Shown in pieces: positions 188-32,582 of a stretch of 34,848 nucleotides of DNA. A model generated the notes under the pieces. That model was not told the origin of the DNA, ran no database searches, and worked only from the letters and a program-made list of their open reading frames with translations. The position numbers and the translations under genes were made by a program. The stretch covers positions 1 to 34,848 of the forward strand of contig OY969557.1 in NCBI GenBank assembly GCA_963701025.1, given 5' to 3'. How positions within the stretch are numbered: position 1 is the stretch's first letter; the number at the start of each line of letters is the position of its first letter. Source of the stretch: an uncultured bacterium (GTDB lineage Bacteria > Patescibacteriota > Minisyncoccia > Phycocordibacterales > PALSA-1337).

Positions 188-1105
188 ATGATTACTTTAT
201 CAAATGGCCATAAGTTTGAATATATGGTCGCAAGCGGCGCTCTTGCTTTTGACGGCAAAGGTTGGCCTTGGGAAAGGCCACTTGTCAAACTTGGACTTAT
301 CAAACCTGAACTCTTCACTGTTGTCATAAAATCTCTGACACGCAATCCGCGTGCCGGAAACCTTCGATGGTGGAAGCCGTGGACATGCATTCGTCTAATC
401 CGGGGCGGTTCGGTCAACAAAGTCGGTCTGACCAACCCTGGCATCGAGTGGTGGTGCAAAGAAGTCGGTCCGAGACTCGACTTAAAGAAATTCTCGATCG
501 CTGGATCAATATTCGGTGAAGGCAGAGATCTTGAAGAATCGGCTGTCATGTTGAATCGCTTCGATCTTGTTGCACTCGAAGTAAACAGCTCGTGTCCAAA
601 CACAGGGCACGCAATGCAACAGGTCGAAGCTATCGTGAGAGATGTGCAGCTCGTCAAAAGAGTTTCTCGTCATCCGATTATCACCAAAGTTTCTGTGGAT
701 CAGGACTATCTCACTATCGCCCGGGAACTTGTCGGGACTGCGGAAGCGGTCTCTCTCAATAGTGTGCCATGGAAGACGGTCTTCAATAGTGGCGAGCAAA
801 CGCCTTTGTGGAGACTCGAAAAGCAAATCGGTGCTGGAGGCGGCGGTGTTTCTGGCAAGCCGGCGCAGGAACATAATTGGTTGGCGGTGAGAAGACTTGC
901 CGCCGATGATCATCTTCCTGTAATTGCACCGAGCGTTATGGAATATGATGATATGAATTGGGTGAGAACAAGGCTTGGAGCGAAAGCCGTGAGCTTTGGT
1001 GCGATTCATCTGCCTACAAAAGGGAAACCATGGACCCTTTTTACAAATCCATGCAGACCAACCTTATTCGTAAAACGCGAAATGAAGGAGAAAGGAAAAT
1101 TATGA
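188..1105 (+). CDS. pyrD: Dihydroorotate dehydrogenase, class 1-like
   Basis: NKVGLTNPG FMN motif, EVNSSCPN catalytic Cys loop, GGGGVSGK; first gene of the pyr cluster. Confidence 0.85.
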   Translation: MITLSNGHKFEYMVASGALAFDGKGWPWERPLVKLGLIKPELFTVVIKSLTRNPRAGNLRWWKPWTCIRLIRGGSVNKVGLTNPGIEWWCKEVGPRLDLKKFSIAGSIFGEGRDLEESAVMLNRFDLVALEVNSSCPNTGHAMQQVEAIVRDVQLVKRVSRHPIITKVSVDQDYLTIARELVGTAEAVSLNSVPWKTVFNSGEQTPLWRLEKQIGAGGGGVSGKPAQEHNWLAVRRLAADDHLPVIAPSVMEYDDMNWVRTRLGAKAVSFGAIHLPTKGKPWTLFTNPCRPTLFVKREMKEKGKL

Positions 1106-2259
1106 TGTCACATGCTGAAGCGATAGAAAGTGTCACTGGGGAAAAACAAGTGATCTTCATTCCCAGATGGTTCGATCGGCACCTTCACATACGTGACGGT
1201 GAGATGATGAAGACGGTCCTGCCGTGCACGCTTAATCAGCGTGCTACAGGGGCGATCATCATGCCAAACCTTATCAGGCCTGGAGGTATTCCAGATCCAG
1301 TGGATTCGATCGAGAAGGCATTAGCCTACAAGAAGAGGATCATTCAAGCGATGACTGATCTTCGCTTTGATATAAATGCATCTGAAGCCAAACAGTGGCA
1401 TTGGGTAAATGATCACTCCGACTTCAAACTTTGCATGACTTGCTACCTTACGGATTCGATCACTCCGGAAGAAGTCGTGCGTGGTTTTGAAGAAGGTGCA
1501 TGGTGTGCGGTCAAGCTCTACATGGCCAATCAAAAAGGCCAAGGTGGAACGACTGGGTCGCACGCAGGCGTCAGAAATCTCCTTGGTCGTTATTCGGTGT
1601 TCGAAGCTATGGAGAAACATAAAATTCCATTACTGGGGCACTTCGAAGCCGTTGAGGAAGATGTGGACGAATTCGATCGCGAGATTGTCTCCATTGAACG
1701 CGACATGCTACCGATCGCCAAGAAATTCCGTGGAATGCCGATAGTTGTCGAGCATTTGACGGACGGTCGCGTTGCGGAAATTGTAGCCGAAAGCGACATG
1801 AACCTGCGGGCAACAGTGACAGCGCATCATCTCATGATCAATCGCAATGCAATGTTCTGGAATGGTATGAATCCCGTCCACTACTGCAAGCCTGTGCCGA
1901 AGCGCGAAACGCATCGGCTCAAGGTTCGCGAGTATGTGACATCCGGCGATCGTCGCTTTGGCGCCGGAACAGATTCGGCTCCGCACGATGAATCGGCCAA
2001 GTCGCGCTGTTGCGGTTGTGCGGCCGGAATATTCACCGCACCGGCGGCCGTTGAGATGTATACGACGGTATTTGACGAGGACAATGCGTTGGAACATCTT
2101 GGCCCATTTCTTTCTGAAAACTTCCTCGACCGATATGGCATGGAAGTGAGCAAGGAAATGATGACGATCAAGCGCATTCTGATGCAGATTCCGCAGAAAA
2201 TCGGCAACGTGCAGGTCTTCAAAGGAGGCACGGAACTCCAATGGAAGCTTGTTTGTTGA
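1102..2259 (+). CDS. pyrC: Dihydroorotase (E. coli-like homodimeric type)
   Basis: DRHLHIRDG (HxH), KLY carbamylated Lys, CKP, GTDSAPH; start placed at the ATGA overlap with the pyrD stop. Confidence 0.92.
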   Translation: MMSHAEAIESVTGEKQVIFIPRWFDRHLHIRDGEMMKTVLPCTLNQRATGAIIMPNLIRPGGIPDPVDSIEKALAYKKRIIQAMTDLRFDINASEAKQWHWVNDHSDFKLCMTCYLTDSITPEEVVRGFEEGAWCAVKLYMANQKGQGGTTGSHAGVRNLLGRYSVFEAMEKHKIPLLGHFEAVEEDVDEFDREIVSIERDMLPIAKKFRGMPIVVEHLTDGRVAEIVAESDMNLRATVTAHHLMINRNAMFWNGMNPVHYCKPVPKRETHRLKVREYVTSGDRRFGAGTDSAPHDESAKSRCCGCAAGIFTAPAAVEMYTTVFDEDNALEHLGPFLSENFLDRYGMEVSKEMMTIKRILMQIPQKIGNVQVFKGGTELQWKLVC

Positions 2260-2276
2260 AATTGAAAATATCACTC

Positions 2277-2312
2277 GGCCCTGGCACTTCATTGTTGTCA
2301 GGGCTGATTTTT
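2277..2312 (+). terminator. Probable intrinsic terminator after pyrC
   Basis: GGCCCTGGCA/TGTCAGGGCT stem followed by ATTTTT. Confidence 0.55.
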
Positions 2313-2429
2313 ATCTGAAGCTTTACTTTCAGACTATTTTAAAGTAGTGTTCCGCTAGAAGTCAGGAGGTTCTGACAAGCCAAACACGCAGCTTTATAGC
2401 GTTATAAACGAACATTGAAAGGAATAAAT

Positions 2430-3161
2430 ATGAAGCCAATCATTCCATTGCCAGGAGAAAATCTTTTGGAACTTGGAAAACGTTGCAATGCAGTTTATGT
2501 CTGTCCGAAAGTCGGCTCCGAGCGCAGGGGACCTTTGGTCGCCTACGCAGGGAAAGACAGCAAGGGACGGAATCTTGTCGGAGACATCTACTTCAACTTC
2601 CGGCGGATTGAGGAACACCAGGAGGTAGTCTCGGTATTTGCATGGGCAGCATTACAGAAGCTTCAGGATAAAACATTGATCGATTCGTTCGACACTATCT
2701 GCGGGATTCCGCAAGGCGGGCGGACGTTCGGCCAAGCGCTCGCACGCATCGCCCAAAAACGATTCGTGTATGCGGACAAGAAGCCGAAGCCTGCAGATTA
2801 CGCAAAATTGGGTCAGAAACAGGAATACATCTGGGATCTCTCGCAGTTTGAATTCGAAAAGGGTGAACGTGTCGCCATCGCAGAAGACGTTTACAACAAC
2901 TTCCAAAATACCGACAACACCCTGGCGGAAATCGCCGTCACCGGAGCCGAGATCGTGCTTCTCATTGGAGCACTCAATCGCTCTCCGGTTTACGACACGA
3001 CCTACAAAGGTCTGCCGGTGATCGCTTCCATCCGTGAAGCATATCCTGAATACAATCAAGACGATCCTGCGGTCGCGGCGGACATTGCCGCCGGCAAGCT
3101 CGAACTCGAAGTGAAGAAAAACTGGGCAAAACTCGTTGCGGCAATGAATGCTGTAGTGTAG
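2430..3161 (+). CDS. pyrE: Type I phosphoribosyltransferase, probable orotate PRTase
   Basis: GIPQGG, VAIAEDV PRPP-loop start, PRT fold layout; lies between pyrC and pyrF. The loop continues atypically (EDVYNNFQNT). Start at ATG 2430. Confidence 0.75.
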   Translation: MKPIIPLPGENLLELGKRCNAVYVCPKVGSERRGPLVAYAGKDSKGRNLVGDIYFNFRRIEEHQEVVSVFAWAALQKLQDKTLIDSFDTICGIPQGGRTFGQALARIAQKRFVYADKKPKPADYAKLGQKQEYIWDLSQFEFEKGERVAIAEDVYNNFQNTDNTLAEIAVTGAEIVLLIGALNRSPVYDTTYKGLPVIASIREAYPEYNQDDPAVAADIAAGKLELEVKKNWAKLVAAMNAVV

Positions 3162-3190
3162 ATTTCCCTCAACAACAAAAGGAAAAGTGT

Positions 3191-3934
3191 ATGCAAAAAA
3201 CATTGACACCGGCGGAACGTTTGATCGTTGCCGCTGACTTCAAGCCTGACCCTAAACAAGGTCAAGGCCGAGACTGGACGATTATGAAAGTGATTCGTCT
3301 TGCACAAAGCCTCAAAGGAACGGGAGTTTGTCTCAAGGTGAATTCTGCCTTGCGGGCTTGTGGTTACACTCTGATAAAACAGATCCACGAGGAAGGTCTC
3401 AAGGTTTTCGCAGATCTCAAACTCTTTGACATCGGCGAGACATTATCCACTGACGGCATCCTGTTGAAGGAAGCGAAGCCTGAACTACTCACTACTGTCT
3501 GTGTTGCAGGAGTTACCGCCATGCAGGCTTTGAAGGCTGAACTGCCGGACACGGAAGTGCTCGGCGTGACGGTTCTGACGAGTCTCAAAGATGCTGACAC
3601 GCAAGCGATGTTCACCTGTTCGACCGAAGAAGCCGTCATGCGGTTCGCCCAAGTTGCGGCAGATGCCAAGATCGACGGGCTCATCTCGTCTCCGAAAGAA
3701 GCAGAAGTGCTTCGCGCGAAATTCGGCATCGTCTTGTCGCTTAATACCCCGGCTATCCGGCCGACATGGGCGATCGTTCCTGGTGATGATCAAAATCCCG
3801 AACGGATCATGACCCCTGCAAAGGCCATCAAGGCCGGCGCAGATCGTATCGTAGTCGGTCGGCCGATCGTGAAAGCCGAAAAGCCCTACGACGCGGTCAT
3901 GCGAACAATCGAGGAGATTGCGTCTGTCACATAA
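3191..3934 (+). CDS. pyrF: Orotidine-5'-phosphate decarboxylase
   Basis: LIVAADF, DLKLFDIGET (DxKxxDIxxT), VTVLTS, PAIRP, VVGRPI. Confidence 0.95.
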   Translation: MQKTLTPAERLIVAADFKPDPKQGQGRDWTIMKVIRLAQSLKGTGVCLKVNSALRACGYTLIKQIHEEGLKVFADLKLFDIGETLSTDGILLKEAKPELLTTVCVAGVTAMQALKAELPDTEVLGVTVLTSLKDADTQAMFTCSTEEAVMRFAQVAADAKIDGLISSPKEAEVLRAKFGIVLSLNTPAIRPTWAIVPGDDQNPERIMTPAKAIKAGADRIVVGRPIVKAEKPYDAVMRTIEEIASVT

Positions 3935-3960
3935 CCCGATAATCGTTTGCGTTAATTCAA

Positions 3961-3989
3961 GTCGCCGAGATCTGTATCGGCGATTTTTT
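3961..3989 (+). terminator. Intrinsic terminator after pyrF
   Basis: GTCGCCGA/TCGGCGAT stem plus T-tract. Confidence 0.75.
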
Positions 3990-4085
3990 ATGTCTGGCAA
4001 AAATAAACCACTCGGGATTCGAACTAATTTATGAAAATTAAGAATCACTATATTTTAAGCCATGACTGAGGGGCGACCCGAGTGG

Positions 4086-4148
4086 GTTCGAACATCTTAT
4101 CCCCCGCAGTCAGTATTTAGTATCGGATGACCCTGAGGCCTCGATAAA
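4086..4148 (-). other. att-like junction homologous to the right end of the LSR2 element
   Basis: CCGCA(4104-4108)-N12-TATCGGA-N7-GAGGCCTYGATAAA has identical spacing to 29517-29560; GTTCGAAC on the other side in both. Confidence 0.55.
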
Positions 4149-4156
4149 CGGATATC

Positions 4157-4196
4157 GTCAAAACCCCGCCAAGGTTGATCCTTTGCGGGGTTTTGA
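4157..4196. terminator. Bidirectional terminator-like hairpin at the end of the minus-strand operon
   Basis: TCAAAACCCCGC ... GCGGGGTTTTGA inverted repeat right after the stop at 4198. Confidence 0.7.
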
Positions 4197-4197
4197 T

Positions 4198-4938
4198 TTA
4201 CTTGTGGCTCAAAAGACTTTTCTCCTGAATTTCTTTTATGCCCTTGGGTAACAAGTGGTAAAAACCATCTTTAAGAGCGATCAGCTTTTCTGCAACCATT
4301 GAAGCGACCGTCCTATTGAATCGGCTTTTGTTATCATCCTTTGTCTTGGAGAAAAGAAAATTGAGGTCACGCTTGTCTGCCGATGATAACACCAATATCT
4401 CTTGTCTCACGGTGAGATCGTCTCTTGCGATGAATTCCTCACCTTCAATATCAAATATGACTGGATAGCTAGGAATAGCGATCTTGTCTATCATCCTTTG
4501 AGCCTCATCCATCGAGTAATTTCCGTAGACACGGATGAACTCGGCGAATATCCAATTTGCACAAGAGAGCACGAAGCTGGCATCGATTTTATTTGCACTG
4601 AAGCCACCGAGATGCGCGACGTCGCGATTATTTCTGAAATCAAGAAGTAGTTTTGTTAGGGATGTTGCCTTCTGACGAATATGCTCGTCTATATTCGTAT
4701 CGTTCGTGACTTTATTGATGATCATGGTTTTATCCGTTGCTTTTATATCTTCACCAAAGAGTGTGATCGGCATACTCAGTAAATGTTGGAAGATGCGCAG
4801 TACGGCTTCCGCGAATCTGCCACCATTCAATTGAGCGGGTCCACAATCGTTCAATTGGAATCGACGCTTTATCTCGGTGTACTCCTCAAGAAGCTTATCC
4901 TCGAGGTTATCAGGAATGGTCTTAAGAATTTTTGTCAT
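4198..4938 (-). CDS. Putative HEPN-domain RNase with C-terminal wHTH-like region
   Basis: GRFAEAVLR upstream helix and RNNRDVAH (Rx4-6H) motif; C-terminal helix-helix-wing pattern; overlaps the upstream gene. Confidence 0.55.
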   Translation of the reverse strand: MTKILKTIPDNLEDKLLEEYTEIKRRFQLNDCGPAQLNGGRFAEAVLRIFQHLLSMPITLFGEDIKATDKTMIINKVTNDTNIDEHIRQKATSLTKLLLDFRNNRDVAHLGGFSANKIDASFVLSCANWIFAEFIRVYGNYSMDEAQRMIDKIAIPSYPVIFDIEGEEFIARDDLTVRQEILVLSSADKRDLNFLFSKTKDDNKSRFNRTVASMVAEKLIALKDGFYHLLPKGIKEIQEKSLLSHK

Positions 4939-5332
4939 CTTTTTTGAAGATGTCCTTCCAGTGCTTACCTAGGACATAAGATGCCCGAGTTTCCTTGGAT
5001 GAATCGACCCAACCGTTTTCCTTCGCACGAGTTGAAAACGTGGAAGCGTAAGGGACGCCGATCATCCCAAAACAGCTTTTCCAAACGGACTTAATTTTAA
5101 GTAAATCCACCGATACACCATCCTTTCCTCCCGACAAATAGCCGGTAATAAGAGTGAAGAATTCTTGGCCATTAAATCCTGCGGAGTACCTTTTAATAAA
5201 GGCTCTCTCGTTAAGAGAAAGATCGAGCGCCGATGTGCTTACGGTAGACACTTCATCGATTGCACCTACGCCAAATACAGCCTTTTCAAGCTTCTCCAAC
5301 CTCTCTTTCATTTCTGTGATTTCTTTTTCCAT
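4922..5332 (-). CDS. Hypothetical protein, N-terminal coiled coil + possible wHTH
   Basis: Overlapping operon ORF; EITEMKERLEKLE coil; STRAKENGWV...YVL resembles a recognition helix plus wing. Confidence 0.6.
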   Translation of the reverse strand: MEKEITEMKERLEKLEKAVFGVGAIDEVSTVSTSALDLSLNERAFIKRYSAGFNGQEFFTLITGYLSGGKDGVSVDLLKIKSVWKSCFGMIGVPYASTFSTRAKENGWVDSSKETRASYVLGKHWKDIFKKDDKNS

Positions 5333-5336
5333 ATAT

Positions 5337-5675
5337 TTATGTTCTTATGATATATTGCCACTGATCATTCTCTTTGATTCGGCGGAGTATCTTTCGGGGA
5401 GGCTTCACAAGATTCAGCAAATTCATAGATACCAGCTCTCTACTGTAGGGTTGGCCCTCTTCTTTTAATTTGTCTACGACTTGAGAAATTGCTTTCTGCG
5501 TTTTAAAGAAATCTTCGTCAATCAGCCCTTGTATCGCACCGATACAGCCGATCGCTTTCTTCGGGGTATTCTTGGCGGCATTTTTTTGAGTAGGGGAGGC
5601 ATTCGCTGGCGCGCCTTCAAGTTCGTTCAGCAATGCTCTTATCTGAGCGACTATTTCGTTAGTTGTCTTTTTCAT
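5337..5675 (-). CDS. Small wHTH-like protein with N-terminal helix and linker
   Basis: LIDEDFFKTQKAISQVVDKL...LVSMNLLNLVK...LRRIKENDQWQY winged-helix pattern. Confidence 0.65.
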   Translation of the reverse strand: MKKTTNEIVAQIRALLNELEGAPANASPTQKNAAKNTPKKAIGCIGAIQGLIDEDFFKTQKAISQVVDKLKEEGQPYSRELVSMNLLNLVKPPRKILRRIKENDQWQYIIRT

Positions 5676-6075
5676 AGTTGTTGAGGATATTCTTGGTCTT
5701 GATTTTTGAGACCTGATAGCTGGTAATGTAATAACCGTCTTCGTCTGATGTTACAAGATTGTTTCCTTTGGCTTCCTTTAGAAGTTTGAGCGTTGGATTC
5801 ACGCTTCCCTTAGGGATACCAGTCTCTTTGATGATGTCCGTGGATCTTACCCGATCGGTCTCAAGCTCACCCAGAAGGAAGAGTACCTTTTTTGCAAGAA
5901 GGAAAAGAACAATCTTGTTTTTGAGAGAATGCTTAAGGGCCGGATCGAGAAAGATTATGTTCTTACTCTTCTGATTGATTTTAATAAATGGAGACAAGAG
6001 CCCGTAGAGCTCTTTGGCGTTCACGTCGTTATCGTCCGTAAACAACTGCTTTAGCACATCGTGTTTATCTGTCAT
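5659..6075 (-). CDS. wHTH DNA-binding protein
   Basis: STDIIKETGIPKGSVNPTLKLL...LVTSDEDGYYI helix-turn-helix-wing; start moved to ATG 6075. Confidence 0.7.
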   Translation of the reverse strand: MTDKHDVLKQLFTDDNDVNAKELYGLLSPFIKINQKSKNIIFLDPALKHSLKNKIVLFLLAKKVLFLLGELETDRVRSTDIIKETGIPKGSVNPTLKLLKEAKGNNLVTSDEDGYYITSYQVSKIKTKNILNNYEKDN

Positions 6076-6138
6076 GTAGATTTGGTTAAAATTTATAATT
6101 CTCAATCGCTCGCTACAGCGGGAGGTTGATTTAGGGAT

Positions 6139-6166
6139 ATTGTAGCACTCAAAAGATTATATGCAA
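6139..6166 (-). promoter_or_regulatory. Sigma70-type promoter of the wHTH/HEPN operon
   Basis: Minus strand TTGCAT-N16-TACAAT with TG upstream of the -10 box. Confidence 0.55.
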
Positions 6167-6553
6167 GTGTTTATAGTAAATGAAAAATGGTTTTTCAAAA
6201 ATAATCGCTCTAAAACATAGTTATAAGAAGATAATTACATACACATGTTCCTTTATAAAAAGTAATCGCTTTGTTGTATTTAACTAGAAACGCCCAATAA
6301 TAAGGCTATTATTGTTTACATAGAGGTTGTAAAGACGTTCTATCAATAAAGGAACAAATATAGTATAGTTAGAAACCTGGGTTAGAAGCATATTACGCCC
6401 TATATTATATAGGTATTTCCACCTATCAGCTCATGGCTTAATAAGTTTTGTTCTTATAGATTTGAAACCACTCTGTTTAACGCTGTGGAAATAAGCCTAT
6501 TTTACTCAAAATTTAACTGAAATTCAGTAGATTTAGGTGTTTTCCTTTGAAAA

Positions 6554-7885
6554 TTAGACTGATTCTATGGTTACAACCTTCGCCGTTACCTTGATCTTCG
6601 ACTTAAAGCATCCCATGAGCTCGCGTTTTTCTTCGTTGGTGCCCTCGCATAGAATGTATTTGGCGTAAGTCTTGAGGTCGATGTCCTTATGCGTCGATTC
6701 CTGCTTCTTGATGCCGAGCACTCCTTTATGGAATTTGTTGTGGCGTTTCAACTCCTCCTCGAATTTATGCTGTATGCCGACATCGTTTAAGTCGATCTGA
6801 TCCATGATAGAGAGGAGCTGTTCAACTAACTCTTCCTCTCGTATGTACTGGCTTTTACAATGTCGGTCTTTCGATCTGCCGCATCCGTAGTAGATGTACT
6901 TGGCCACCGTGCCATCTTTCAACTGCTTGTACTTTTCCTCGGCTGATATGCTCGATCCGCAGAGGCCGCATACCATGAGCTTGGTGAAGGCGAACTCATG
7001 GCTTTGCCGTTCAATACCGTCCCGATGCATTTGTTCTTGTACTCTATCGAATAGCTCTTTTGACACGATCGGCTCATGTTTACCCTGATACCAGTTTCCA
7101 GACTTTTTCGGATACTCGAATGTGCCGTAATAGAAGGGATTTTGGAGAGTGCGGAATATATTACCTAGGGCCATATTGTGATTACCGATCGTCTTGAAGT
7201 TAAGATCGAATTTGAGCCAGTGATATATTTTTCGACCAGACCATTTTTCATCGGCCATTTTTTCGTACATCTTTTTTACGATCGGCGCCCGATCAAGATC
7301 GATGATTTTTTGGCATTTTTTGTCTATCAACTTCTGATCCAAGTATCCGACTGGAGCCATTCCTGGAAATAGCCCCATCTCTACTCTCGTTCTCAGTCCG
7401 CGCTTTACATTGATGCCTCGGTTATCATTCTCGAGCTTGGCCTGACTTCCTAGTATCATAAGGAGGAACTTTTCGTTAGGATTATTTCTGAAGCTCTGTC
7501 CATATGTCCTTATTTCCTGAAGCTTTCCGGCATCCATAAGGTCGACGATTTTACCAAGGTCACCGGCGTTGCGGCTGATCCTATCTGGTGCCCAGGTGAG
7601 AATGCCGTTGAACTTGCCTTGCCTGATTTCATCGACGATCTCATTGAAGACCGGCCTTTGCCCAGTCTCTTTAGCAGAGTGGCTTTCACGCTTCATTGTC
7701 ACGATCTCAAGTCCCTCACGTTCAGCTAGTTGGAGCATCTCCTTGATCTGGCTGTCGATGGAGAGGACTTGGCGTTCCTCTGATTCAGTACTTTTTCTCG
7801 CGTAGAGGCAGTATTTGACGGGTATGATTTCCGGGGCCTGCCTCGCTATTTGTCCCAGATTTACCCTTGTGGTTGCTTGTTGCAT
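6554..7885 (-). CDS. Large serine recombinase LSR1 (resolvase + recombinase + Zn-ribbon)
   Basis: YCLYARKST catalytic Ser, APDRISRN, CGLCG...YYGC Zn ribbon. Confidence 0.95.
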   Translation of the reverse strand: MQQATTRVNLGQIARQAPEIIPVKYCLYARKSTESEERQVLSIDSQIKEMLQLAEREGLEIVTMKRESHSAKETGQRPVFNEIVDEIRQGKFNGILTWAPDRISRNAGDLGKIVDLMDAGKLQEIRTYGQSFRNNPNEKFLLMILGSQAKLENDNRGINVKRGLRTRVEMGLFPGMAPVGYLDQKLIDKKCQKIIDLDRAPIVKKMYEKMADEKWSGRKIYHWLKFDLNFKTIGNHNMALGNIFRTLQNPFYYGTFEYPKKSGNWYQGKHEPIVSKELFDRVQEQMHRDGIERQSHEFAFTKLMVCGLCGSSISAEEKYKQLKDGTVAKYIYYGCGRSKDRHCKSQYIREEELVEQLLSIMDQIDLNDVGIQHKFEEELKRHNKFHKGVLGIKKQESTHKDIDLKTYAKYILCEGTNEEKRELMGCFKSKIKVTAKVVTIESV

Positions 7886-7914
7886 GTTTATATACCTTTT
7901 AGCCGGTATACCTC

Positions 7915-7976
7915 AAGGAATGACGCAGACCGCCCAAGGAGTCCAGAGCGTCCCGGGTGGCTATAAGTTGGTAACT
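7915..7976. repeat. Bipartite conserved site AAGGNATGACGCA-N37-39-GTTGGTAA, copy 1
   Basis: Also at 10766-10825 and 32321-32380; copies 1 and 3 share GACCGC..AAGGA(A)GTCCAGA and lie just upstream of LSR1 and LSR3. Confidence 0.7.
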
Positions 7977-8031
7977 AATGCTTCAAAATTCCCTTGAAAA
8001 TGCTAGAATTCAATATCACTCGTGCGATTTT

Positions 8032-10737
8032 ATGATTACCCTTAACGAAATCAGGAAACGGTCCGTCGCATTCGCCCATGAATGGGAACGAGAGTATAGC
8101 GAAGATGCGGAAGCAAAAAGCTTTTGGGATGGGTTTTTCAATGTCTTCGGCGTTTCTCGCAGGCGCGTAGCCACTTTTGAGTATCCGGTCAAAAAGTTAG
8201 ACGGTGGGCAGGGATATATTGATGTCATTTGGAAAGGCATTATGCTTGCTGAACATAAAACTCGTGGCAAAAGCCTGGATAAAGCATATGCTCAGGCCAG
8301 AGAGTATTTTCCCGGTTTGAAAGACCAAGAGCTTCCCCGATATATTGTCGTCTCCGATTTTGAAAAAATCCGCTTGTATGATTTGGAGACGAATAAACAT
8401 GAAGAATTTCTACTCAAAGATCTGCATAACTACGTAGACCTTTTCGGCTTTATTTCAGGCTACAGGGTTCAGGTATATGAAAAAGCAGAAGAAGCAAGCA
8501 TTGAGGCCGCTGAATTGATGGCTGATTTTCATAATGAGATAGCGAAGACGGGATATAGCGGACACGATCTTGAGGTCTTTCTCATCCGTATCCTTTTTTG
8601 TCTTTTTGCCGACAATACTGGTATTTTCCCAAAAAATCATTTCCGCGCGTATATAGAGAATAGGATCAACAAGGACGGTTCTGATCTCGGCATACATTTA
8701 TTGCAGATTTTCGATGTGCTCAATACGCCCAAGGAAAAGAGGCAGACGAATCTCGACGAGCAACTAATGGCATTTGACTATATCAACGGAGGCATCTTTG
8801 CTGAACGGATTAAGTCCGTATCGCTCGACGCGACCGCCCATCTCAAACTCATAAGGTGTTGTAAGTTCGATTGGTCGCAAATATCGGCGTCCATTTTCGG
8901 TTCATTGTTTCAAGGTGTCATGGACGAGAAAGCCCGTCGTCAGCTTGGTGCTCATTACACGTCGGAAATAAATATACTGAAGGTCATTCATCCACTTTTT
9001 CTCGATGAGCTTCACATCGAATTTGATCAGGTCAAATATGATTCCAAGAAACTTGATGCTTTCCATAAAAAGCTTTCACAGCTGACATTCCTCGATCCTG
9101 CATGCGGATGCGGAAATTTCCTCGTTATAGCGTATCGCGAGCTTCGCAAGCTTGAGATCGATATTCTACTTAAAAAGCGCACGACCAAAGACTCAAGTAT
9201 GCGGATATTCGGAGCCGATGAACTCTCGACGATAAATGTCAATCAATTCTACGGTATCGAGATCGAAGAATTTCCGGCTCTTGTCGCCCGTGTCGCGATG
9301 TATCTCGTCGATCATCAAATGAACCAATTGCTCTCTGAGAAGTTCGGCGAAATATACGCACGTATTCCTCTGCGGGAACCCGCAACGATCATCAACGCGG
9401 ATGCTTTGACTACTGATTGGGAAAAAGTTGTCTCGAAAGGTAAACTCTCATATATTCTCGGTAATCCGCCTTTTGTCGGCGCGCGCCTCATGGAGAAAAA
9501 ACAAAAGGAGATTTTCTTGAGCCTCTTTGATGATGCAAAAGGGGCTGGTAATCTTGATTTTGTTACCGCATGGTATGAGAAAGCGGCTCGATATATGGGG
9601 GGCACGCATATCAAGACCGCCTTCGTGTCCACAAACTCTATCTGCCAGGGTGAGCAGGTCGCCATTCTCTGGAAAAGATTGAAAGAAAAATATGCTGTAA
9701 CGATTCACTTCGCGCATGAGACGTTCAAATGGAATAACGACGCACCCGGCGTCGCCGCAGTCTATTGTGTTATTGTTGGCTTCGCTTGTTTTGATACTCC
9801 GAAAAAGTATCTCTATGAATACGAGACTATAAAAAGCGAGCCAAAAGAAAAAGAAGTCTCGCACATAAATGCGTATCTTGTCGCCGGTGGCGATGTGTTT
9901 ATAGAAAACAGACGAACTCCAGTATCTTCGGTGCCAGAAATCGTGTTTGGAAGCATGCCCAACGATGGAGGCAATTTTCTTTTTACTGAAAGCGAGAAAG
10001 ACGAGTTTCTAGAAGCGGAGCCAGGTGCAAAAGCCTTTATGAAAGAACTCATCAGTGCGAAAGAATATCTGAACGGCGAAAAACGTTATTGCTTGTGGCT
10101 CAAAGATATTGAGCCGAAAGCTTTGAAGGGACTGCCAAAGGTTTTGGAACGAGTGGAGAATATCAAAAGACTACGGGCTGAAAGCACTCGCAAAGAAACA
10201 CAGGAATTGGCACATTACCCGACTCTTTTTGGTGAGATACGTCAACCAGATAGTGACTATATTGCAATCCCCCGTGTCAGCTCAGAAAACAGGGTGTATA
10301 TTCCAATGAGTTTTTTCGATAAAGAAAAGATCGTCGGAGATACATGCCTTGCTGTTCCAAACGCTACACTGTATGACTTTGGTATTCTCCAATCTCTGAT
10401 GCATATGACGTGGGTATCGTATGTGTGTGGGAGGCTAAAGAGTGATTACCGTTACTCGAATACACTCGTCTACAATAATTTTCCTTGGCCGGAAAATGTG
10501 TCCGACGAACACAAGAAAAAAGTCGAGGAATATGCACAAAAAGTCCTCGATGTTCGTCTACAATCTTCACATAGCTCTCTCGCTGATTTATATGATCCAA
10601 ACACGATGCCACCGGAGCTTGTTAAAGCACACACTGATCTCGATAGGACGGTGGACGCGTGCTACGAAAAAAAGTTTTTAAACAAAGAGACCCGAATCGA
10701 ATTTTTATTCTGGTTGTATAAGGAATTGACTAAGTAA
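8032..10737 (+). CDS. MmeI-family (type IIL/IIG) fused restriction endonuclease-N6A methyltransferase
   Basis: N-terminal IDVIW..LAEHK PD-(D/E)xK, GAHYT, LDPACGCGNFL, GNPPF, C-terminal RYSNTLVYNNFPWP; start ATG 8032. Confidence 0.92.
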   Translation: MITLNEIRKRSVAFAHEWEREYSEDAEAKSFWDGFFNVFGVSRRRVATFEYPVKKLDGGQGYIDVIWKGIMLAEHKTRGKSLDKAYAQAREYFPGLKDQELPRYIVVSDFEKIRLYDLETNKHEEFLLKDLHNYVDLFGFISGYRVQVYEKAEEASIEAAELMADFHNEIAKTGYSGHDLEVFLIRILFCLFADNTGIFPKNHFRAYIENRINKDGSDLGIHLLQIFDVLNTPKEKRQTNLDEQLMAFDYINGGIFAERIKSVSLDATAHLKLIRCCKFDWSQISASIFGSLFQGVMDEKARRQLGAHYTSEINILKVIHPLFLDELHIEFDQVKYDSKKLDAFHKKLSQLTFLDPACGCGNFLVIAYRELRKLEIDILLKKRTTKDSSMRIFGADELSTINVNQFYGIEIEEFPALVARVAMYLVDHQMNQLLSEKFGEIYARIPLREPATIINADALTTDWEKVVSKGKLSYILGNPPFVGARLMEKKQKEIFLSLFDDAKGAGNLDFVTAWYEKAARYMGGTHIKTAFVSTNSICQGEQVAILWKRLKEKYAVTIHFAHETFKWNNDAPGVAAVYCVIVGFACFDTPKKYLYEYETIKSEPKEKEVSHINAYLVAGGDVFIENRRTPVSSVPEIVFGSMPNDGGNFLFTESEKDEFLEAEPGAKAFMKELISAKEYLNGEKRYCLWLKDIEPKALKGLPKVLERVENIKRLRAESTRKETQELAHYPTLFGEIRQPDSDYIAIPRVSSENRVYIPMSFFDKEKIVGDTCLAVPNATLYDFGILQSLMHMTWVSYVCGRLKSDYRYSNTLVYNNFPWPENVSDEHKKKVEEYAQKVLDVRLQSSHSSLADLYDPNTMPPELVKAHTDLDRTVDACYEKKFLNKETRIEFLFWLYKELTK

Positions 10738-10765
10738 ACCTGACTTTACTTTAAAAATAATGATA

Positions 10766-10825
10766 AAGGTATGACGCAACTCGTCTTAGAAGCCTAGGGC
10801 GTCCGAATAACTCAAGGTTGGTAAT
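10766..10825. repeat. Bipartite site, degenerate copy 2 (downstream of the MmeI-like gene)
   Basis: AAGGTATGACGCA at 10766-10778 and GTTGGTAAT at 10817, spacing matching the other copies. Confidence 0.55.
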
Positions 10826-10882
10826 CATATCGACACAGTCGACCAATTTTATGGCTAATTCTCTTAATTCGAGCTCATTTAT

Positions 10883-10919
10883 GGGCGGAAAACAAGCTGT
10901 TGGTAACTCGGCTTCGCAA
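10883..10919. repeat. Right-arm copy GGGCGG...GTTGGTAACTCGGCTTCGCAA
   Basis: Matches GTTGGTAACTGGGCTTCGCAA at 32371-32391 except one base. Confidence 0.65.
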
Positions 10920-11024
10920 AAGGCCTTGTCTAAGCTAGGGTACTGACTAAAGCTCTTTTTTGCGCTATTATTGCCTTACAACTGAATATTAGTAGTTGAC
11001 CTAACCCTTGCGGACTTTCTGTGA

Positions 11025-11165
11025 GGCATGGTCGAAAATCCCGCTAGAGATCAAAGGACTCCTCGTCAGAGTCACTCTAGCGGGTCATACCGGGAAACTG
11101 GTATGGGCAGGGCCGAAAGGTTTTGTCGCGATGGCGAGGAGTCTTTTGACGTTCCAAGACTCCCA
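11025..11165 (+). ncRNA. Candidate structured leader RNA M1, copy 1
   Basis: 10-bp stem 11040-49/11075-84, CATACCGG-GAAA-CTGGTATG, second GAAA hairpin; same layout with different stem sequence at 32465-32582. Confidence 0.6.
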
Positions 11166-11189
11166 CCGTTTAAAACCCGCTAGAGTTTT

Positions 11190-11876
11190 ATGAAAAACTT
11201 CACAAATTTTCTGAATGAAGAGAAAATTAAAGATAACATAGCTTCTTTTGAGAAAGATCATCACCCACTATCGCGTGGCGCCTCGTTTGATTATTGCTTC
11301 AATTATTTTCAAGAATTTACAGACAAGAAAAAAATTGCCAGTAAAGACAATATACAAAAAAGTTGTCTCCACCTGGCTTTTTATTTAGCCAGTTGGGGGA
11401 TGTTAAGAAATTCATTCTTATTACAAAAAAGTATGAAGTATTTTGAACCACTTATGGAATATTTTTCAACAGATGATTGCGACGTCTGGAATATAGACGT
11501 GGATAAATACGATGAAGAAAATATCATTAAATTAACTGAATGCTACGGGAAAATAAAAGATATTTTATTGAAAGGAGAGGACAAAAGACATGAAATGGGT
11601 ACTTTGGTAACAAAAATAATGTTAGGTGTATTTGGCAATGTACCAGCGTTTGATGCGTATTTCAGGAATGGTTTCGGATTTGGTACCTTTAATAAAAAAT
11701 CACTCGTTCACATTAGTGAATTTTATAAGAATGGTAACTACCCAAGACTTATCTCTGATGAAGCAAATAGAATTAAGACTTTTGATTATGATAGTGGAAA
11801 ATCAACCGATAGATCATACACCAGAGCAAAGATAGTAGACGCGATATTTTTTATAGAAGGATTTAATAAACAATAA
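11190..11876 (+). CDS. Conserved hypothetical protein (possible HhH-glycosylase-like fold)
   Basis: Clean 228-aa ORF; LAFYLASWGM and TLVTKIMLGVFGNVPAFD motifs; fold call is inference. Confidence 0.6.
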   Translation: MKNFTNFLNEEKIKDNIASFEKDHHPLSRGASFDYCFNYFQEFTDKKKIASKDNIQKSCLHLAFYLASWGMLRNSFLLQKSMKYFEPLMEYFSTDDCDVWNIDVDKYDEENIIKLTECYGKIKDILLKGEDKRHEMGTLVTKIMLGVFGNVPAFDAYFRNGFGFGTFNKKSLVHISEFYKNGNYPRLISDEANRIKTFDYDSGKSTDRSYTRAKIVDAIFFIEGFNKQ

Positions 11877-11880
11877 AAAA

Positions 11881-12960
11881 ATGAAAAAATATATATTTTC
11901 AATCGCTATACTGTCTATCGTCCCATCGGTTGCTTTTGCTTCTTGGTGGAATCCGGCCACGTGGTTTCAATCGCCCAGTGGAGAGAACAATCAGTCTGTG
12001 CAACAGCTGACACAACAATTTTCGACTACTACAGAAGCAACAAGCACAATATCAATCATCAACCAATCTGTGGCAACGACCAGTCAGGCGATGTTGCAAT
12101 CGGAAATAAACATGCTTACTATGCAGAATAATTCTTTGCAATCAAAGCTTAATAGCATCGAAAGCCAACTTGCCCTGGCGCAGAAAAACTATTCCATGTG
12201 CCAAGTTAGTCTAACGGCGGCCCAAAATACCAATACCGCTTCACAGGTTCAACAACCAACGATAGCTCCAACTGTGCCAACCGTTGCGCCATCTACAGCT
12301 TCTATCTCAGCTGACTACAATAACCCTATCGCGCATACAGTCTCAGCTGTCAGCGGTCAGTATCCTAGTCTGCCAATTCTGACGTTTGACATAGCGCCAT
12401 CAAATAATAACCAAACTCTCGGTTCCGTGACGGTAAATATAAACAACTCTGGTCAGGGAACCGTAAATACAGCTTATCTGTACGTAAGTGGCTTTAGTAC
12501 ATCTGTCGCCACGGCTGTGGTCTCCAACGGAAGTGCGACATTTTCAGATATTCGGAGCATACCGTCGTTAAGTACAAACGCTAGTCCTTACGATACTTTT
12601 ACCGTCAAGGTAGACGTATCAGGTCTGACAGACGTCGGATCATCTGAGTCGGTCTCTGCATCTGTATCGAATGTCACGATCACGGATTCAGCAGGCCATG
12701 GTGTAAATGTCACTGGGACAGCTCAAGGAAAAGTTATCACCGTGACAAATGATTCGACTGCGGATTCTTTAAATAGTGGTTCATATCCATTTAATTTAAC
12801 AGAACAAGAAGTATCAACTCCAGGAACGTATACTGTCTCAACAGGAGGATCTTCTTATAGCGTGACAGTATATCCAGATGGACTATGTTCCCAGTCTAGA
12901 GGCCCTTGCACGGAAGTCGGAGGTGGTTGGAGTTGCACAAAAGACGGATGTGGTGGTTAA
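11881..12960 (+). CDS. Secreted/surface protein: signal peptide, coiled coil, Ig-like beta domain
   Basis: MKKYIFSIAILSIVPSVAFA signal followed by SWWNP; S/T-rich; LTFD...TAYLY...TVKVD domain shared with 32644..34096. Confidence 0.8.
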   Translation: MKKYIFSIAILSIVPSVAFASWWNPATWFQSPSGENNQSVQQLTQQFSTTTEATSTISIINQSVATTSQAMLQSEINMLTMQNNSLQSKLNSIESQLALAQKNYSMCQVSLTAAQNTNTASQVQQPTIAPTVPTVAPSTASISADYNNPIAHTVSAVSGQYPSLPILTFDIAPSNNNQTLGSVTVNINNSGQGTVNTAYLYVSGFSTSVATAVVSNGSATFSDIRSIPSLSTNASPYDTFTVKVDVSGLTDVGSSESVSASVSNVTITDSAGHGVNVTGTAQGKVITVTNDSTADSLNSGSYPFNLTEQEVSTPGTYTVSTGGSSYSVTVYPDGLCSQSRGPCTEVGGGWSCTKDGCGG

Positions 12961-12967
12961 AAAATAA

Positions 12968-32303: not shown

Positions 32304-32320
32304 ATGTGTCATACAGCTAC

Positions 32321-32391
32321 AAGGGATGACGCAGACCGCTAAGGAAGTCCAGATCCTTTGAAAGGGCGGAGTTGGTAACTGGGCTTCGCAA
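32321..32391. repeat. Bipartite site copy 3 with GGCTTCGCAA right arm
   Basis: Matches 7915-7976 and 10899-10919. Confidence 0.7.
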
Positions 32392-32464
32392 TCACTTGCT
32401 TTTATGGTACAGTTTCGACACAACCGAATATGTGAAAAGTAGCCTAAACCCTCGAGAAATCGGC

Positions 32465-32582
32465 GGCATGGCGAAAAACCAGTAACGGATAGAGAACCCA
32501 TCATATGGGGTCACCGTTACTGGTCATATCGGGAAACTGGTATGGGTGCCGCAAGGCATCACCCATGTGGTGGGCTTTGTGT
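32465..32582 (+). ncRNA. Candidate structured leader RNA M1, copy 2
   Basis: 11-bp stem 32478-88/32514-24, CATATCGG-GAAA-CTGGTATG, GTGCC-GCAA-GGCAT. Confidence 0.6.

What the first reader, a model, noticed from the sequence alone, without database searches (positions are those of the whole stretch)
4198..6075. Four-gene operon: three winged-helix-like proteins plus a HEPN-like RNase
Seen: overlapping ORFs under one promoter and one terminator, beside an LSR; the last has RNNRDVAH. Known: HEPN Rx4-6H domains are RNase effectors in toxin-antitoxin and abortive-infection systems. Inference: a multi-subunit DNA-sensing or DNA-coating complex (two members have N-terminal coiled helices) gating an RNase. 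I do not recognise this architecture as a named system.
Basis: partly seen in the sequence, partly recalled or inferred. Interest (0 to 1): 0.7.

Follow-up and report, generated by a model that had tools for sequence, protein, structure and literature searches.

The report
Uncharacterised HEPN-like nuclease operon
A real, conserved four-gene operon encodes a predicted RNA-cutting (HEPN-like) protein with a winged-helix tail plus three small partner proteins; the set matches no family in any library searched, recurs in many bacteria, often on mobile islands next to restriction enzymes, and is most likely an undescribed phage-defence or addiction module.

Summary
Four overlapping minus-strand genes (4198-6075) sit between a conserved promoter and a strong terminator, and all are under purifying selection (dN/dS 0.03-0.12).

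- **ORF4 (effector).** It has an all-alpha N-domain with an RNxRxxxH motif, kept in 129 of 134 full-length cluster representatives, and a C-terminal winged helix. HEPN is the best structural match in the PDB, but weakly (E about 0.8). No sequence profile confirms it.
- **Partners.** ORF3 is a helix plus a winged helix (fold search). ORF1 is a winged helix by weak profile hits. ORF2 is unproven.
- **Databases.** None of the four matches Pfam, NCBIfam, PHROGs or PADLOC at a significant level.
- **Conservation.** ORF4 relatives form about 925 clusters at 50% identity. In 24 of 27 sampled distinct places they follow one to three same-strand genes from a small modular set of partner families.
- **Context.** In 8 of those 27 places, recognised defence genes lie within 6 kb. 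A homologous large serine recombinase lies beside the cassette in four distinct Patescibacteria places besides the window.

Best reading (about 50%): an effector-plus-winged-helix-partner conflict system, acting as abortive infection or toxin-antitoxin and carried as island cargo. The gating and DNA-sensing mechanism is untested. I rate it a new variant of a known kind.

The parts
4158..4196 (-). Intrinsic-terminator-like hairpin directly after the ORF4 stop codon. It could act in both directions.
   Evidence: Inverted repeat I2, 17-nt arms, 94% complementary. RNA fold -25.7 kcal/mol, z = -5.4, 0 of 200 shuffles as good.
4198..4938 (-). ORF4, 246 aa. N-terminal all-alpha HEPN-like domain (about aa 1-155, nt 4474-4938) plus C-terminal winged helix (about aa 156-240). 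Predicted effector.
   Evidence: AF2 model with pLDDT 86.9. Foldseek matches the C-terminus to MarR, Sso10a and AspA winged helices (prob 1.0) and the N-terminus to HEPN proteins 1ufb and 2hsb (E 0.8-0.9, TM 0.50-0.54). 141 close homologues and 925 clusters at 50% identity. No Pfam, NCBIfam, PHROG or PADLOC family at a significant level.
4612..4635 (-). Codons for RNNRDVAH (aa 102-109), the candidate catalytic Rx6H motif.
   Evidence: F101, R102, N103, R105, H109 and G112 are invariant in 48 homologues. RNxRxxxH is present in 129 of 134 full-length cluster representatives. It lies at a helix-helix junction with low pLDDT.
4922..5332 (-). ORF3, 136 aa. N-terminal helix (aa 2-20), disordered linker, winged-helix domain (aa 42-130). 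Overlaps ORF4 by 17 nt.
   Evidence: AF2 model with pLDDT 80.5, above 90 over aa 40-130. Most Foldseek top hits are winged-helix domains: cullin WHB, ORC, MukE/F, RosR, MarR; E 0.08-0.5. Related to partner families c34 and, through c34, C7551 (hhalign probabilities 61-66% and 95%). 62 homologues, no Pfam.
5337..5675 (-). ORF2, 112 aa. N-terminal helix, low-complexity linker, conserved C-terminal domain of about 65 aa. A winged helix is suspected but not shown.
   Evidence: 452 homologues with no Pfam domain. Homologues sit in alphaproteobacterial cassettes. Only 1 of 12 members gives a weak Penicillinase_R hit. hhalign to the other partners finds nothing.
5659..6075 (-). ORF1, 138 aa. Helical N-terminal region of about 55 aa plus a MarR-like winged helix.
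   Evidence: MarR_2 hits in 6 of 10 family members, with HTH_11, IclR, TrmB and RepL hits in others, all below the curated cut-off. Homologues pair with distant ORF4 relatives in L035 and L036.
6102..6129 (-). Conserved 5' leader element (TCAACCTCCCGCTGTAGCGAGCGATTGA) between the promoter and the ORF1 start.
   Evidence: Conserved in 5 of 7 aligned loci. The RNA structure is weak: -7.7 kcal/mol, z = -1.9. Function unknown, possibly an operator.
6139..6167 (-). Sigma-70-type promoter with extended -10: CTTGCAT-N16-TGCTACAAT.
   Evidence: Near-invariant block in 7 loci spanning cassettes whose ORF4 proteins share as little as 58% identity. Coordinates.
6246..6356 (-). Operator-like inverted repeat TGTTCCTTTAT (6346-6356) and ATAAAGGAACA (6246-6256), with a CCTTAT-like middle copy (6297-6305).
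   Evidence: Both arms are invariant or nearly so in 7 loci while the surrounding sequence diverges. Coordinates. A binding role is inferred.
6554..7885 (-). Large serine recombinase, 443 aa, upstream on the same strand. The likely mobility gene of the island carrying the cassette.
   Evidence: Resolvase, Recombinase and Zn_ribbon_recom domains. A homologous recombinase lies next to the cassette in L004, L010 (fragment), L013 (opposite strand) and L031, and a serine recombinase (Resolvase and Recombinase domains) lies about 3 kb from it in L040. It is absent in L011, L012, L027 and all alphaproteobacterial loci.
7978..10737 (+). MmeI-family type IIG restriction-modification enzyme, 919 aa. Context only, not part of the operon.
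   Evidence: All five MmeI Pfam domains. PADLOC REase_MTase_IIG, 1180 bits.

Best explanation
The operon encodes a previously unclassified conflict system (anti-phage abortive infection or toxin-antitoxin-like), carried as cargo on small integrative islands.

The effector is ORF4. It has an N-terminal HEPN-like domain with a candidate catalytic R-N-x-R-x-x-x-H site, fused to a winged helix. By analogy with other HEPN nucleases it would dimerise and cut RNA.

ORF1, ORF2 and ORF3 each combine a short N-terminal helix with a small C-terminal domain, a winged helix in ORF1 and ORF3. They would assemble with ORF4 and hold the nuclease inactive and/or sense the trigger. At least one winged helix would autoregulate the operon through the conserved inverted repeat upstream of the promoter.

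Shown:
- operon structure and purifying selection;
- the conserved motif;
- winged-helix folds of ORF3 and the ORF4 C-terminus;
- modular co-occurrence of partners with ORF4 relatives across phyla;
- frequent defence and mobile-element neighbours.

Inferred:
- HEPN RNase activity;
- complex formation;
- inhibition and release;
- autoregulation;
- the defence phenotype.
For: Operon and genes:
- Four translationally coupled genes lie between a conserved promoter and a strong terminator.
- dN/dS is 0.03-0.12.

Effector:
- The ORF4 N-domain is all-alpha, and the only extended matches to it among the top 50 PDB hits with probability near 0.7 are the HEPN proteins 1ufb and 2hsb.
- R102, N103, R105 and H109 are invariant in 48 homologues.
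- RNxRxxxH is present in 129 of 134 diverse full-length representatives and in an archaeal homologue.

Co-occurrence:
- In 24 of 27 distinct places with sequence available on the upstream side, an ORF4 relative is preceded on the same strand by one to three genes. These are drawn from the partner families ORF1, ORF2, ORF3/C7551/c34 and D6983 or, in L038, a zinc-ribbon homologue of a D6983-like partner.
- NCBI locus tags show adjacency in independent MAGs: Q8Q38_01750/55/60, AAB536_02055/60/65, K8R42_05000/05/10.

Defence context, within 6 kb:
- window: MmeI type IIG;
- L011: methyltransferase; L028: AbiO/Nhi/PDC-S41-like helicase;
- L033: methyltransferase-Mrr fusion;
- L035: MmeI/type ISP plus a Cas4-like DUF2779 gene overlapping the ORF4-like stop;
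- L038: type IIG plus PemK;
- L040: serine recombinase, EcoRI methylase and GmrSD/HNH.

Mobility:
- In Campbellbacteria the recombinase and the cassette lie directly between a peptidase gene and a sensor-kinase gene, so the cassette may be the island's only cargo. This is inferred from gene content and the island ends were not mapped.

Precedent:
- In the type IX retron Kva2 a winged-helix protein encircles the HEPN active site and attenuates its toxicity (bioRxiv 10.64898/2026.07.14.738597).
- HEPN domains commonly accompany restriction-modification systems, where they are proposed as suicidal effectors (PMC3710099).
Against: - No HEPN family in Pfam or PADLOC matches ORF4 or any of 58 scanned relatives, even at E up to 0.1-1.
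- Structural matches to HEPN are not significant: E about 0.8, TM about 0.5. Helical bundles match promiscuously.
- One diverged subfamily (L040) lacks the first arginine of the motif.
- Most alphaproteobacterial copies sit among housekeeping genes with no defence neighbours.
- There is no homologue in 50,697 phage records and only one distant archaeal homologue (about 28% identity over the N-domain) in 72,556 plasmid records. Mobility outside recombinase islands is therefore not evident.
- No expression, toxicity or phage data exist, and no RNA-seq run holds the locus.
Confidence: 0.5

Rival explanations
1. It is an addiction (toxin-antitoxin) module that stabilises the recombinase-borne island rather than protecting the host from phages. 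ORF4 would be the toxin and one or more small partners the labile antitoxin and autorepressor.
For: In Campbellbacteria the recombinase and the cassette lie directly between two apparently host genes, so the cassette may be the only cargo. The genes are tightly overlapped, and a conserved operator-like repeat lies upstream of the promoter, as in type II toxin-antitoxin autoregulation. Other toxin-antitoxin pairs (RES-Xre, PemK) are neighbours in L032 and L038.
Against: Three partner genes are more than a toxin-antitoxin pair needs. Many copies are chromosomal with no mobility gene nearby. Restriction-modification and Abi-like neighbours fit defence islands equally well. The two roles are not exclusive.
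Confidence: 0.2
2. It is a regulatory or DNA-organising module of the mobile element. Four winged-helix DNA-binding proteins would control recombinase excision or integration (directionality) or coat and partition element DNA, and the ORF4 N-domain would be a non-catalytic sensor or oligomerisation domain.
For: All proteins tested carry winged helices whose best matches include MarR repressors and the centromere-binding AspA and TubR proteins. The cassette lies directly downstream of the recombinase on the same strand in the window, L004 and L031. Conserved inverted repeats lie between the recombinase gene and the cassette.
Against: Most cassettes, including the closest relative L011 (89% nt identity), have no recombinase. 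The conserved DNA block stops before the recombinase gene. The near-universal RNxRxxxH plus H86, R88, Q89 and K90 invariants look like an active site rather than a scaffold. No ParA-like ATPase or replication gene is associated.
Confidence: 0.12
3. It is a dedicated back-up arm of the neighbouring type IIG/ISP restriction enzyme, in the way PrrC works with EcoprrI. The complex would monitor the restriction enzyme and release the RNase when a phage inhibits it.
For: Type IIG/ISP or other methyltransferase-restriction genes lie beside the cassette in the window, L011, L033, L035, L038 and L040. The logic of HEPN as a second line behind restriction-modification is described in PMC3710099.
Against: The restriction-modification types differ: MmeI, ISP, EcoRI-like, Mrr fusion. 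About two thirds of the sampled places have no restriction-modification gene. The orientation to the restriction gene varies (divergent, convergent, tandem). No shared partner domain links the two.
Confidence: 0.08

Closest known systems
Type IX retron (Retron-Kva2) HEPN plus winged-helix effector pair
   Same: A HEPN nuclease whose active site is occluded, and whose toxicity is attenuated, by a winged-helix partner protein. It acts by abortive infection through RNA cleavage (bioRxiv 10.64898/2026.07.14.738597).
   Different: No reverse transcriptase or ncRNA lies at the locus. The retron HEPN lacks the Rx4-6H motif, whereas ORF4 has an invariant Rx6H. Here the effector itself carries a winged helix and has up to three partners. 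No sequence similarity was tested or found.
HEPN-MNT type II/VII toxin-antitoxin systems (e.g. TT1696 / 1ufb family)
   Same: A small stand-alone HEPN-type domain in a tightly coupled operon. 1ufb and 2hsb are the best structural matches to the ORF4 N-domain.
   Different: No minimal nucleotidyltransferase antitoxin is present. Partners are winged-helix proteins. The motif is Rx6H inside RNxRxxxH. ORF4 has an extra C-terminal winged helix. No profile match.
Restriction-linked HEPN anticodon nucleases (PrrC/RloC) and other HEPN domains embedded in restriction-modification operons
   Same: A HEPN-type effector encoded beside restriction-modification genes, a recurrent theme (PMC3710099). Restriction-modification neighbours occur in six sampled places.
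   Different: No ABC-ATPase domain. The restriction link is not obligate. The HEPN family is different and unclassified.
Abi-type HEPN proteins (AbiV, AbiD/F, AbiJ/Abi_C)
   Same: Small HEPN effectors in one- to two-gene abortive-infection systems. From memory, the Abi_C motif RNxxxxxH has the same Rx6H spacing; this is a lead, not a test.
   Different: Pfam models for these families give no hit to ORF4 or its relatives. PADLOC Abi models give no hit. The partner set is different.

Membership tests
HEPN superfamily | Rx4-6H motif at the junction before the last core helix | tested here: met
   R102-x6-H109 is invariant in 48 homologues and present in 129 of 134 representatives. It lies between helices 85-103 and 115-139 of the model. 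One diverged subfamily (L040) lacks R102.
HEPN superfamily | All-alpha up-down helical bundle fold matching known HEPN structures | tested here: inconclusive
   The N-domain is all-alpha. Foldseek gives 1ufb at E 0.82 (TM 0.50) and 2hsb at E 0.86 (TM 0.54). No PDB hit reached E <= 0.001. The whole chain was used as the query, which dilutes the signal.
HEPN superfamily | Sequence-profile match to a curated HEPN family | tested here: not met
   No HEPN family in Pfam at E <= 1 for ORF4 and 47 homologues, or at E <= 0.1 for 10 distant representatives. None in PADLOC or NCBIfam. PDB profile search gave nothing.
HEPN superfamily | Dimer with composite active site; metal-independent RNase activity | not testable with these tools
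   No multimer prediction or biochemistry was available.
Winged helix-turn-helix fold (ORF4 C-terminus, ORF3) | Three helices plus a beta-hairpin wing matching solved winged-helix domains | tested here: met
   ORF4 aa 160-240 matches MarR, Sso10a and AspA with prob 0.99-1.0 and rmsd 2-3 A over about 70 aa. ORF3 aa 42-130: most top hits are winged-helix domains, E 0.08-0.5.
Winged helix-turn-helix fold (ORF1) | Profile match to winged-helix families | tested here: inconclusive
   MarR_2 in 6 of 10 members (best E 0.0056, below the curated cut-off), plus HTH_11, IclR, TrmB and RepL hits. No structure was predicted.
Winged helix-turn-helix fold (ORF2) | Profile or fold match to winged-helix families | tested here: inconclusive
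   One weak Penicillinase_R hit in 12 members. Nothing in PDB profiles. hhalign to the other partners gives probabilities at or below 1.3%.
Any system in PADLOC-DB v2 (known and candidate defence systems) | Significant match of the component proteins to system models | tested here: not met
   Only E about 0.006-0.013 hits to generic winged-helix parts of CARF3 and WH_III-A for ORF1 and ORF4. Nothing for ORF2 or ORF3.
HEPN-MNT toxin-antitoxin | Adjacent minimal nucleotidyltransferase antitoxin | tested here: not met
   No nucleotidyltransferase domain in ORF1-3.
Type IX retron | Reverse transcriptase and msr/msd ncRNA adjacent to the HEPN and winged-helix genes | tested here: not met
   No reverse-transcriptase ORF lies in the neighbourhood. 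Rfam finds only LOOT RNAs, elsewhere in the window.
Recombinase accessory (directionality or regulatory) module | Obligate linkage to the recombinase gene | tested here: not met
   The cassette is present without a recombinase in L011, L012, L027, L028 and all alphaproteobacterial loci. DNA conservation with L011 ends at 6521, before the recombinase gene.

The most novel reading that the evidence does not exclude
ORF4 and its modular winged-helix partners define a widespread, phylum-spanning immune system missing from current defence catalogues. It comprises about 925 clusters at 50% identity, from Patescibacteria and Alphaproteobacteria to Deinococcus and haloarchaea. In it, a HEPN RNase is caged by a hetero-oligomer built only of helix-linker-winged-helix subunits that act as interchangeable sensors, possibly reporting on the integrity of neighbouring type IIG restriction enzymes. 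It would also be one of the few dedicated defence systems native to the reduced genomes of Patescibacteria.
Probability: 0.3. Interest if true: 0.75.

Novelty: new variant of a known kind. Interest (0 to 1): 0.6.

Why it matters
If the prediction holds, this adds a sizeable, uncatalogued family to the set of HEPN-based abortive-infection and toxin-antitoxin systems.

Its regulatory design is unusual. Up to three small helix-plus-winged-helix subunits, swapped modularly between lineages, accompany one effector that itself carries a winged helix.

It would also help explain how ultra-small Patescibacteria, which carry few known defences, protect themselves or stabilise their recombinase-borne islands.

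It gives a concrete, testable example of winged-helix proteins acting as nuclease cages or sensors, a mechanism so far seen only in the type IX retron.

For annotation, all four proteins are currently 'hypothetical' everywhere. A family definition alone would be useful.

Tried and rejected
- **Family libraries.** Pfam, NCBIfam, PHROGs and PADLOC scans of all four proteins and of family members gave no significant family. The only hits were sub-threshold winged-helix hits for ORF1 and the ORF4 C-terminus.
- **PDB by sequence.** Single-sequence and profile searches against PDB gave nothing meaningful.
- **Viral structures.** Foldseek against BFVD matched only the winged helix.
- **Partner relationships.** hhalign among partner families links ORF3, C7551 and c34 only. 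ORF1, ORF2, D6983 and the ORF4 winged helix are not demonstrably related. My first impression that all partners are paralogous winged helices is therefore not supported.
- **tRNA or LOOT fragment as an att site left of ORF4.** No tRNA was found, there was no LOOT similarity, and Rfam gave only terminator-like sub-threshold hits.
- **5' leader as a structured RNA.** The fold is weak, z = -1.9.
- **Phage and plasmid collections.** No phage record holds a homologue, and only one distant archaeal plasmid homologue was found.
- **Literature.** Searches on HEPN with winged helix, Patescibacteria, serine recombinase and defence found no description of this cassette.
- **Conserved large neighbours in alphaproteobacterial loci.** These turned out to be UvrA and ribonucleotide reductase, so they are coincidental housekeeping genes.
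Full report
**1. Observation**

| ORF | Coordinates | Length |
|---|---|---|
| ORF1 | 5659-6075 | 138 aa |
| ORF2 | 5337-5675 | 112 aa |
| ORF3 | 4922-5332 | 136 aa |
| ORF4 | 4198-4938 | 246 aa |

- The ORF list starts ORF1 at a TTG at 6105. The orthologue alignment shows that the conserved ATG at 6075 is the real start.
- ORF1/ORF2 and ORF3/ORF4 each overlap by 17 nt. ORF2 and ORF3 are 4 nt apart.
- RNNRDVAH is ORF4 residues 102-109 (nt 4612-4635).
- The genes are not chance ORFs. Against orthologues in three other metagenome-assembled genomes, dN/dS is 0.03-0.12 for all four.
- A hairpin at 4158-4196 directly follows the ORF4 stop. It folds at -25.7 kcal/mol, with z = -5.4 against shuffles.
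- Upstream of ORF1, an alignment of seven loci shows three features (coordinates):
  - a near-invariant promoter, CTTGCAT-N16-TGCTACAAT, at window 6139-6167;
  - a conserved leader at 6102-6129;
  - about 80-190 nt further upstream, an invariant inverted repeat, TGTTCCTTTAT ... ATAAAGGAACA, at 6346-6356 and 6246-6256.
- The generic promoter scan missed this promoter. The comparative evidence is stronger than that scan.
- The neighbour at 6554-7885 is a large serine recombinase. The gene at 7978-10737 is an MmeI-type type IIG restriction-modification enzyme.

**2. The proteins**

None of the four matches any model in Pfam, NCBIfam, PHROGs or PADLOC at a meaningful level.

*ORF4*
- It has 141 close homologues, all annotated 'hypothetical'.
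- A profile search of 1.84 billion cluster representatives finds 925 clusters at E <= 0.001. Nearly all are 245-265 aa and align end to end.
- Ten diverse representatives also lack Pfam domains.
- In 48 homologues the invariant residues are E19, K24, G40, R41, E44, Q51, K70, H86, R88, Q89, K90, F101, R102, N103, R105, H109, G112, D119, W129, E133 and R136.
- The signature RNxRxxxH is present in 129 of 134 full-length representatives and in a haloarchaeal plasmid homologue.
- One diverged subfamily (L040) has TSNRGGRH, so it lacks the first arginine.
- An AlphaFold2 model (pLDDT 86.9) shows an all-alpha domain (helices between residues 10 and 152) followed by a winged helix (about 160-240). The motif lies at a helix junction with low local confidence.
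- Foldseek against the PDB gives no hit at E <= 0.001.
  - The C-terminal domain matches MarR, Sso10a and AspA-type winged helices with probability about 1.
  - The extended matches to the N-domain with probability near 0.7 are the HEPN proteins TT1696 (1ufb: E 0.82, TM 0.50) and AF_0298 (2hsb: E 0.86, TM 0.54).
- HEPN is therefore the best available assignment. It rests on motif, secondary structure and weak fold similarity, not on a significant match.

*ORF3*
- The model has pLDDT 80.5, above 90 over residues 40-130.
- It is an N-terminal helix (2-20), a disordered linker and a compact domain.
- Most of that domain's top Foldseek hits are winged-helix domains: cullin WHB, ORC, MukE/F, RosR, MarR.

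*ORF1*
- It gives sub-threshold MarR_2 hits in 6 of 10 family members, plus other winged-helix families.

*ORF2*
- It has 452 homologues and no domain hit.
- Its C-terminal 65 residues look like a winged helix by eye.

**3. Conservation of the set**

I fetched 22 genome loci through the ORF4 alignment and further contigs through individual homologues.

- Counting each distinct place once, and leaving out one contig with too little upstream sequence, gives 27 places.
- In 24 of them an ORF4 relative is preceded on the same strand by one to three small genes, usually overlapping.
- The exceptions are L025 and L029 (no recognised partner upstream) and L037 (the small partner-like gene lies downstream).
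- The partners come from a limited set of families:
  - ORF1-like;
  - ORF2-like;
  - ORF3-like, which hhalign links to c34 (61-66%) and, through c34, to C7551 (c34-C7551 95%);
  - D6983-like (about 180 aa), which weakly matches longer zinc-ribbon-bearing partners in Deinococcus (L032) and, by homology to that protein, in L038.
- Arrangements seen:

| Arrangement | Where |
|---|---|
| ORF1-ORF2-ORF3-ORF4 | window and six other distinct Patescibacteria loci (five with ORF4 on the contig) |
| ORF1-C7551-ORF3-like-ORF3-ORF4 | L012 |
| ORF1-C7551-D6983-ORF4 | L028 |
| ORF2-D6983-C7551-ORF4 | several Alphaproteobacteria |
| D6983-C7551-ORF4 | Bradyrhizobium |
| ORF1-like-C7551-like-196 aa-ORF4-like | Microgenomates (L035) |
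| one partner + ORF4-like | L032, L033, L038 |

- NCBI locus tags independently show adjacency in three MAGs.
- The refutation criterion 'the four genes do not co-occur elsewhere' is therefore not met. The exact four-gene set is conserved in Patescibacteria, and the principle of ORF4 plus modular partners is conserved far more widely.

**4. Genomic context**

- At the DNA level the closest relative (L011, 89% identity) matches the window only from 4209 to 6521. That span covers the cassette and its regulatory region and stops before the recombinase gene.
- A homologous recombinase is adjacent in L004, L010 (fragment), L013 (opposite strand) and L031. A serine recombinase lies about 3 kb from the cassette in L040. 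It is absent elsewhere.
- In Campbellbacteria the recombinase and the cassette lie directly between a peptidase gene and a sensor-kinase gene. The cassette may therefore be the only cargo, although the island ends were not mapped.
- Recognised defence genes lie within 6 kb in 8 of the 27 distinct places:
  - window: MmeI;
  - L011: type II/PglX-like methyltransferase;
  - L028: AbiO/Nhi/PDC-S41-like protein;
  - L033: methyltransferase-Mrr fusion;
  - L035: MmeI/type ISP enzyme, plus a Cas4-like DUF2779 gene overlapping the ORF4-like stop codon;
  - L038: type IIG plus PemK;
  - L040: EcoRI methylase plus GmrSD/HNH.
- Most alphaproteobacterial copies lie among housekeeping genes such as UvrA and ribonucleotide reductase.
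- No homologue is present in the phage collection. The only plasmid match is one distant archaeal homologue, about 28% identity over the N-domain.

**5. Mechanism**

Best-supported reading: a conflict system in which ORF4 is a HEPN-type RNase effector and the small partners form a regulatory or sensor (antitoxin-like) assembly.

- *Shown:*
  - operon structure;
  - purifying selection;
  - a putative active-site signature conserved across phyla;
  - winged-helix folds for ORF3 and the ORF4 C-terminus;
  - modular partner exchange;
  - mobile-island and defence-island association.
- *Inferred:*
  - RNase activity;
  - hetero-oligomer formation, possibly through the N-terminal helices that ORF2, ORF3 and their relatives share;
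  - inhibition and trigger-dependent release;
  - autoregulation through the conserved inverted repeat.
- *Precedent:* in the type IX retron Kva2, a winged-helix protein surrounds the HEPN active site and attenuates HEPN toxicity (bioRxiv 10.64898/2026.07.14.738597).
- *General theme:* HEPN domains recur beside restriction-modification systems, where a suicidal back-up role has been proposed (PMC3710099).
Winged helices here may mediate protein contacts, as in MukE/F and cullin-type domains, operator binding, or both.

**6. Rivals**

- **(a) Addiction module.** It would stabilise the island. This is compatible with the minimal recombinase-plus-cassette arrangement and the toxin-antitoxin-like autoregulatory layout, and it is not exclusive with defence.
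- **(b) Element-encoded regulatory or DNA-organising module.** It would have a non-catalytic ORF4. Two facts weaken it: cassettes occur without a recombinase, and the invariant residues look like an active site.
- **(c) Dedicated back-up for type IIG restriction.** It is suggested by six restriction-modification-adjacent places. The variable restriction type and orientation, and the many copies with no restriction gene nearby, weaken it.

**7. Comparison and novelty**

- The cassette fails membership tests for HEPN-MNT (no nucleotidyltransferase), type IX retrons (no reverse transcriptase or ncRNA), PrrC/RloC (no ABC ATPase) and every PADLOC system.
- Membership of the HEPN superfamily is met for the motif, inconclusive for the fold and not met for sequence profiles.
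- I found no paper describing it. These searches cover open-access text only.
- I rate it a new variant of a known kind: HEPN effector plus proteinaceous inhibitor or sensor.
- The effector family is uncatalogued and the all-winged-helix modular partner set is unusual.
- Interest is 0.6. The family is large, cleanly delimited and experimentally tractable. Its catalytic nature and phenotype are unproven, and the general logic would not surprise specialists.

Noticed in passing
window 10998-11127 (+) and 32441-32560 (+): Two full-length LOOT RNA (RF03000) copies, at 81 and 92 bits. One lies just downstream of the MmeI gene, about 3 kb from the recombinase gene. The other overlaps the 5' end of a second recombinase-like gene. 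A link between LOOT RNAs and serine-recombinase elements (an att site?) is unexplored.
   Followed up: partly
window 30986-32504 (-): A second large-serine-recombinase-like region is split into two overlapping ORFs (30986-32068 and 31911-32504). It is similar at the DNA level to the L004 and L031 recombinase genes and looks frameshifted or degraded.
   Followed up: partly
window 4005-4093: An inverted repeat, AAACCACTCGGG / CCCGAGTGGGTT, 60 nt apart, with each arm followed by (A/G)TTCGAAC. It lies between the pyrF terminator and the cassette terminator. It is not a tRNA, not LOOT-like and has no Rfam match. It may be an island boundary or att remnant.
   Followed up: partly
window 188-3934 (+): Four consecutive plus-strand ORFs that I read, from their translations alone, as a pyrimidine-biosynthesis cluster (pyrD-, pyrC-, pyrE- and pyrF-like). 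The cluster ends at a terminator at 3959-3986. G+C drops from about 0.50 to 0.37-0.46 across 4001-13000, consistent with an inserted island.
   Followed up: no
window 11190-11876 (+): A 228-aa ORF right after LOOT copy 1. It has no family match in Pfam, NCBIfam, PHROGs or PADLOC apart from a weak DUF2247 hit.
   Followed up: no
L035 6756-8261: In a Microgenomates contig the ORF4-like gene is followed, with overlapping stop and start, by a 501-aa DUF2779 protein with weak Cas4-like nuclease hits. This may be a variant of the system with a second nuclease.
   Followed up: partly
L032 4727-6004 and L038 4795-5967: Single large partners (425 and 390 aa) of distant ORF4 relatives begin with double zinc-ribbon motifs. 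The L032 protein weakly matches the D6983 partner family, and the L038 protein is homologous to the L032 protein. They look like fused versions of the small partners.
   Followed up: partly
L040 5399-6169: An ORF4-like protein in a recombinase, EcoRI-methylase and GmrSD/HNH island has TSNRGGRH instead of RNxRxxxH. The first arginine of the putative catalytic motif is therefore not universal.
   Followed up: no
L007 8761-8964 vs 9995-11542: Next to the alphaproteobacterial cassette lies a 67-aa duplicate of the GMP synthase C-terminus, about 1 kb from the intact guaA gene. This is the signature of an integration hot spot at the guaA 3' end.
   Followed up: no
L023 1165-4629: A class II ribonucleotide reductase upstream of the cassette appears to carry an intein-like insertion: 1154 aa against 844 aa in L013.
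   Followed up: no
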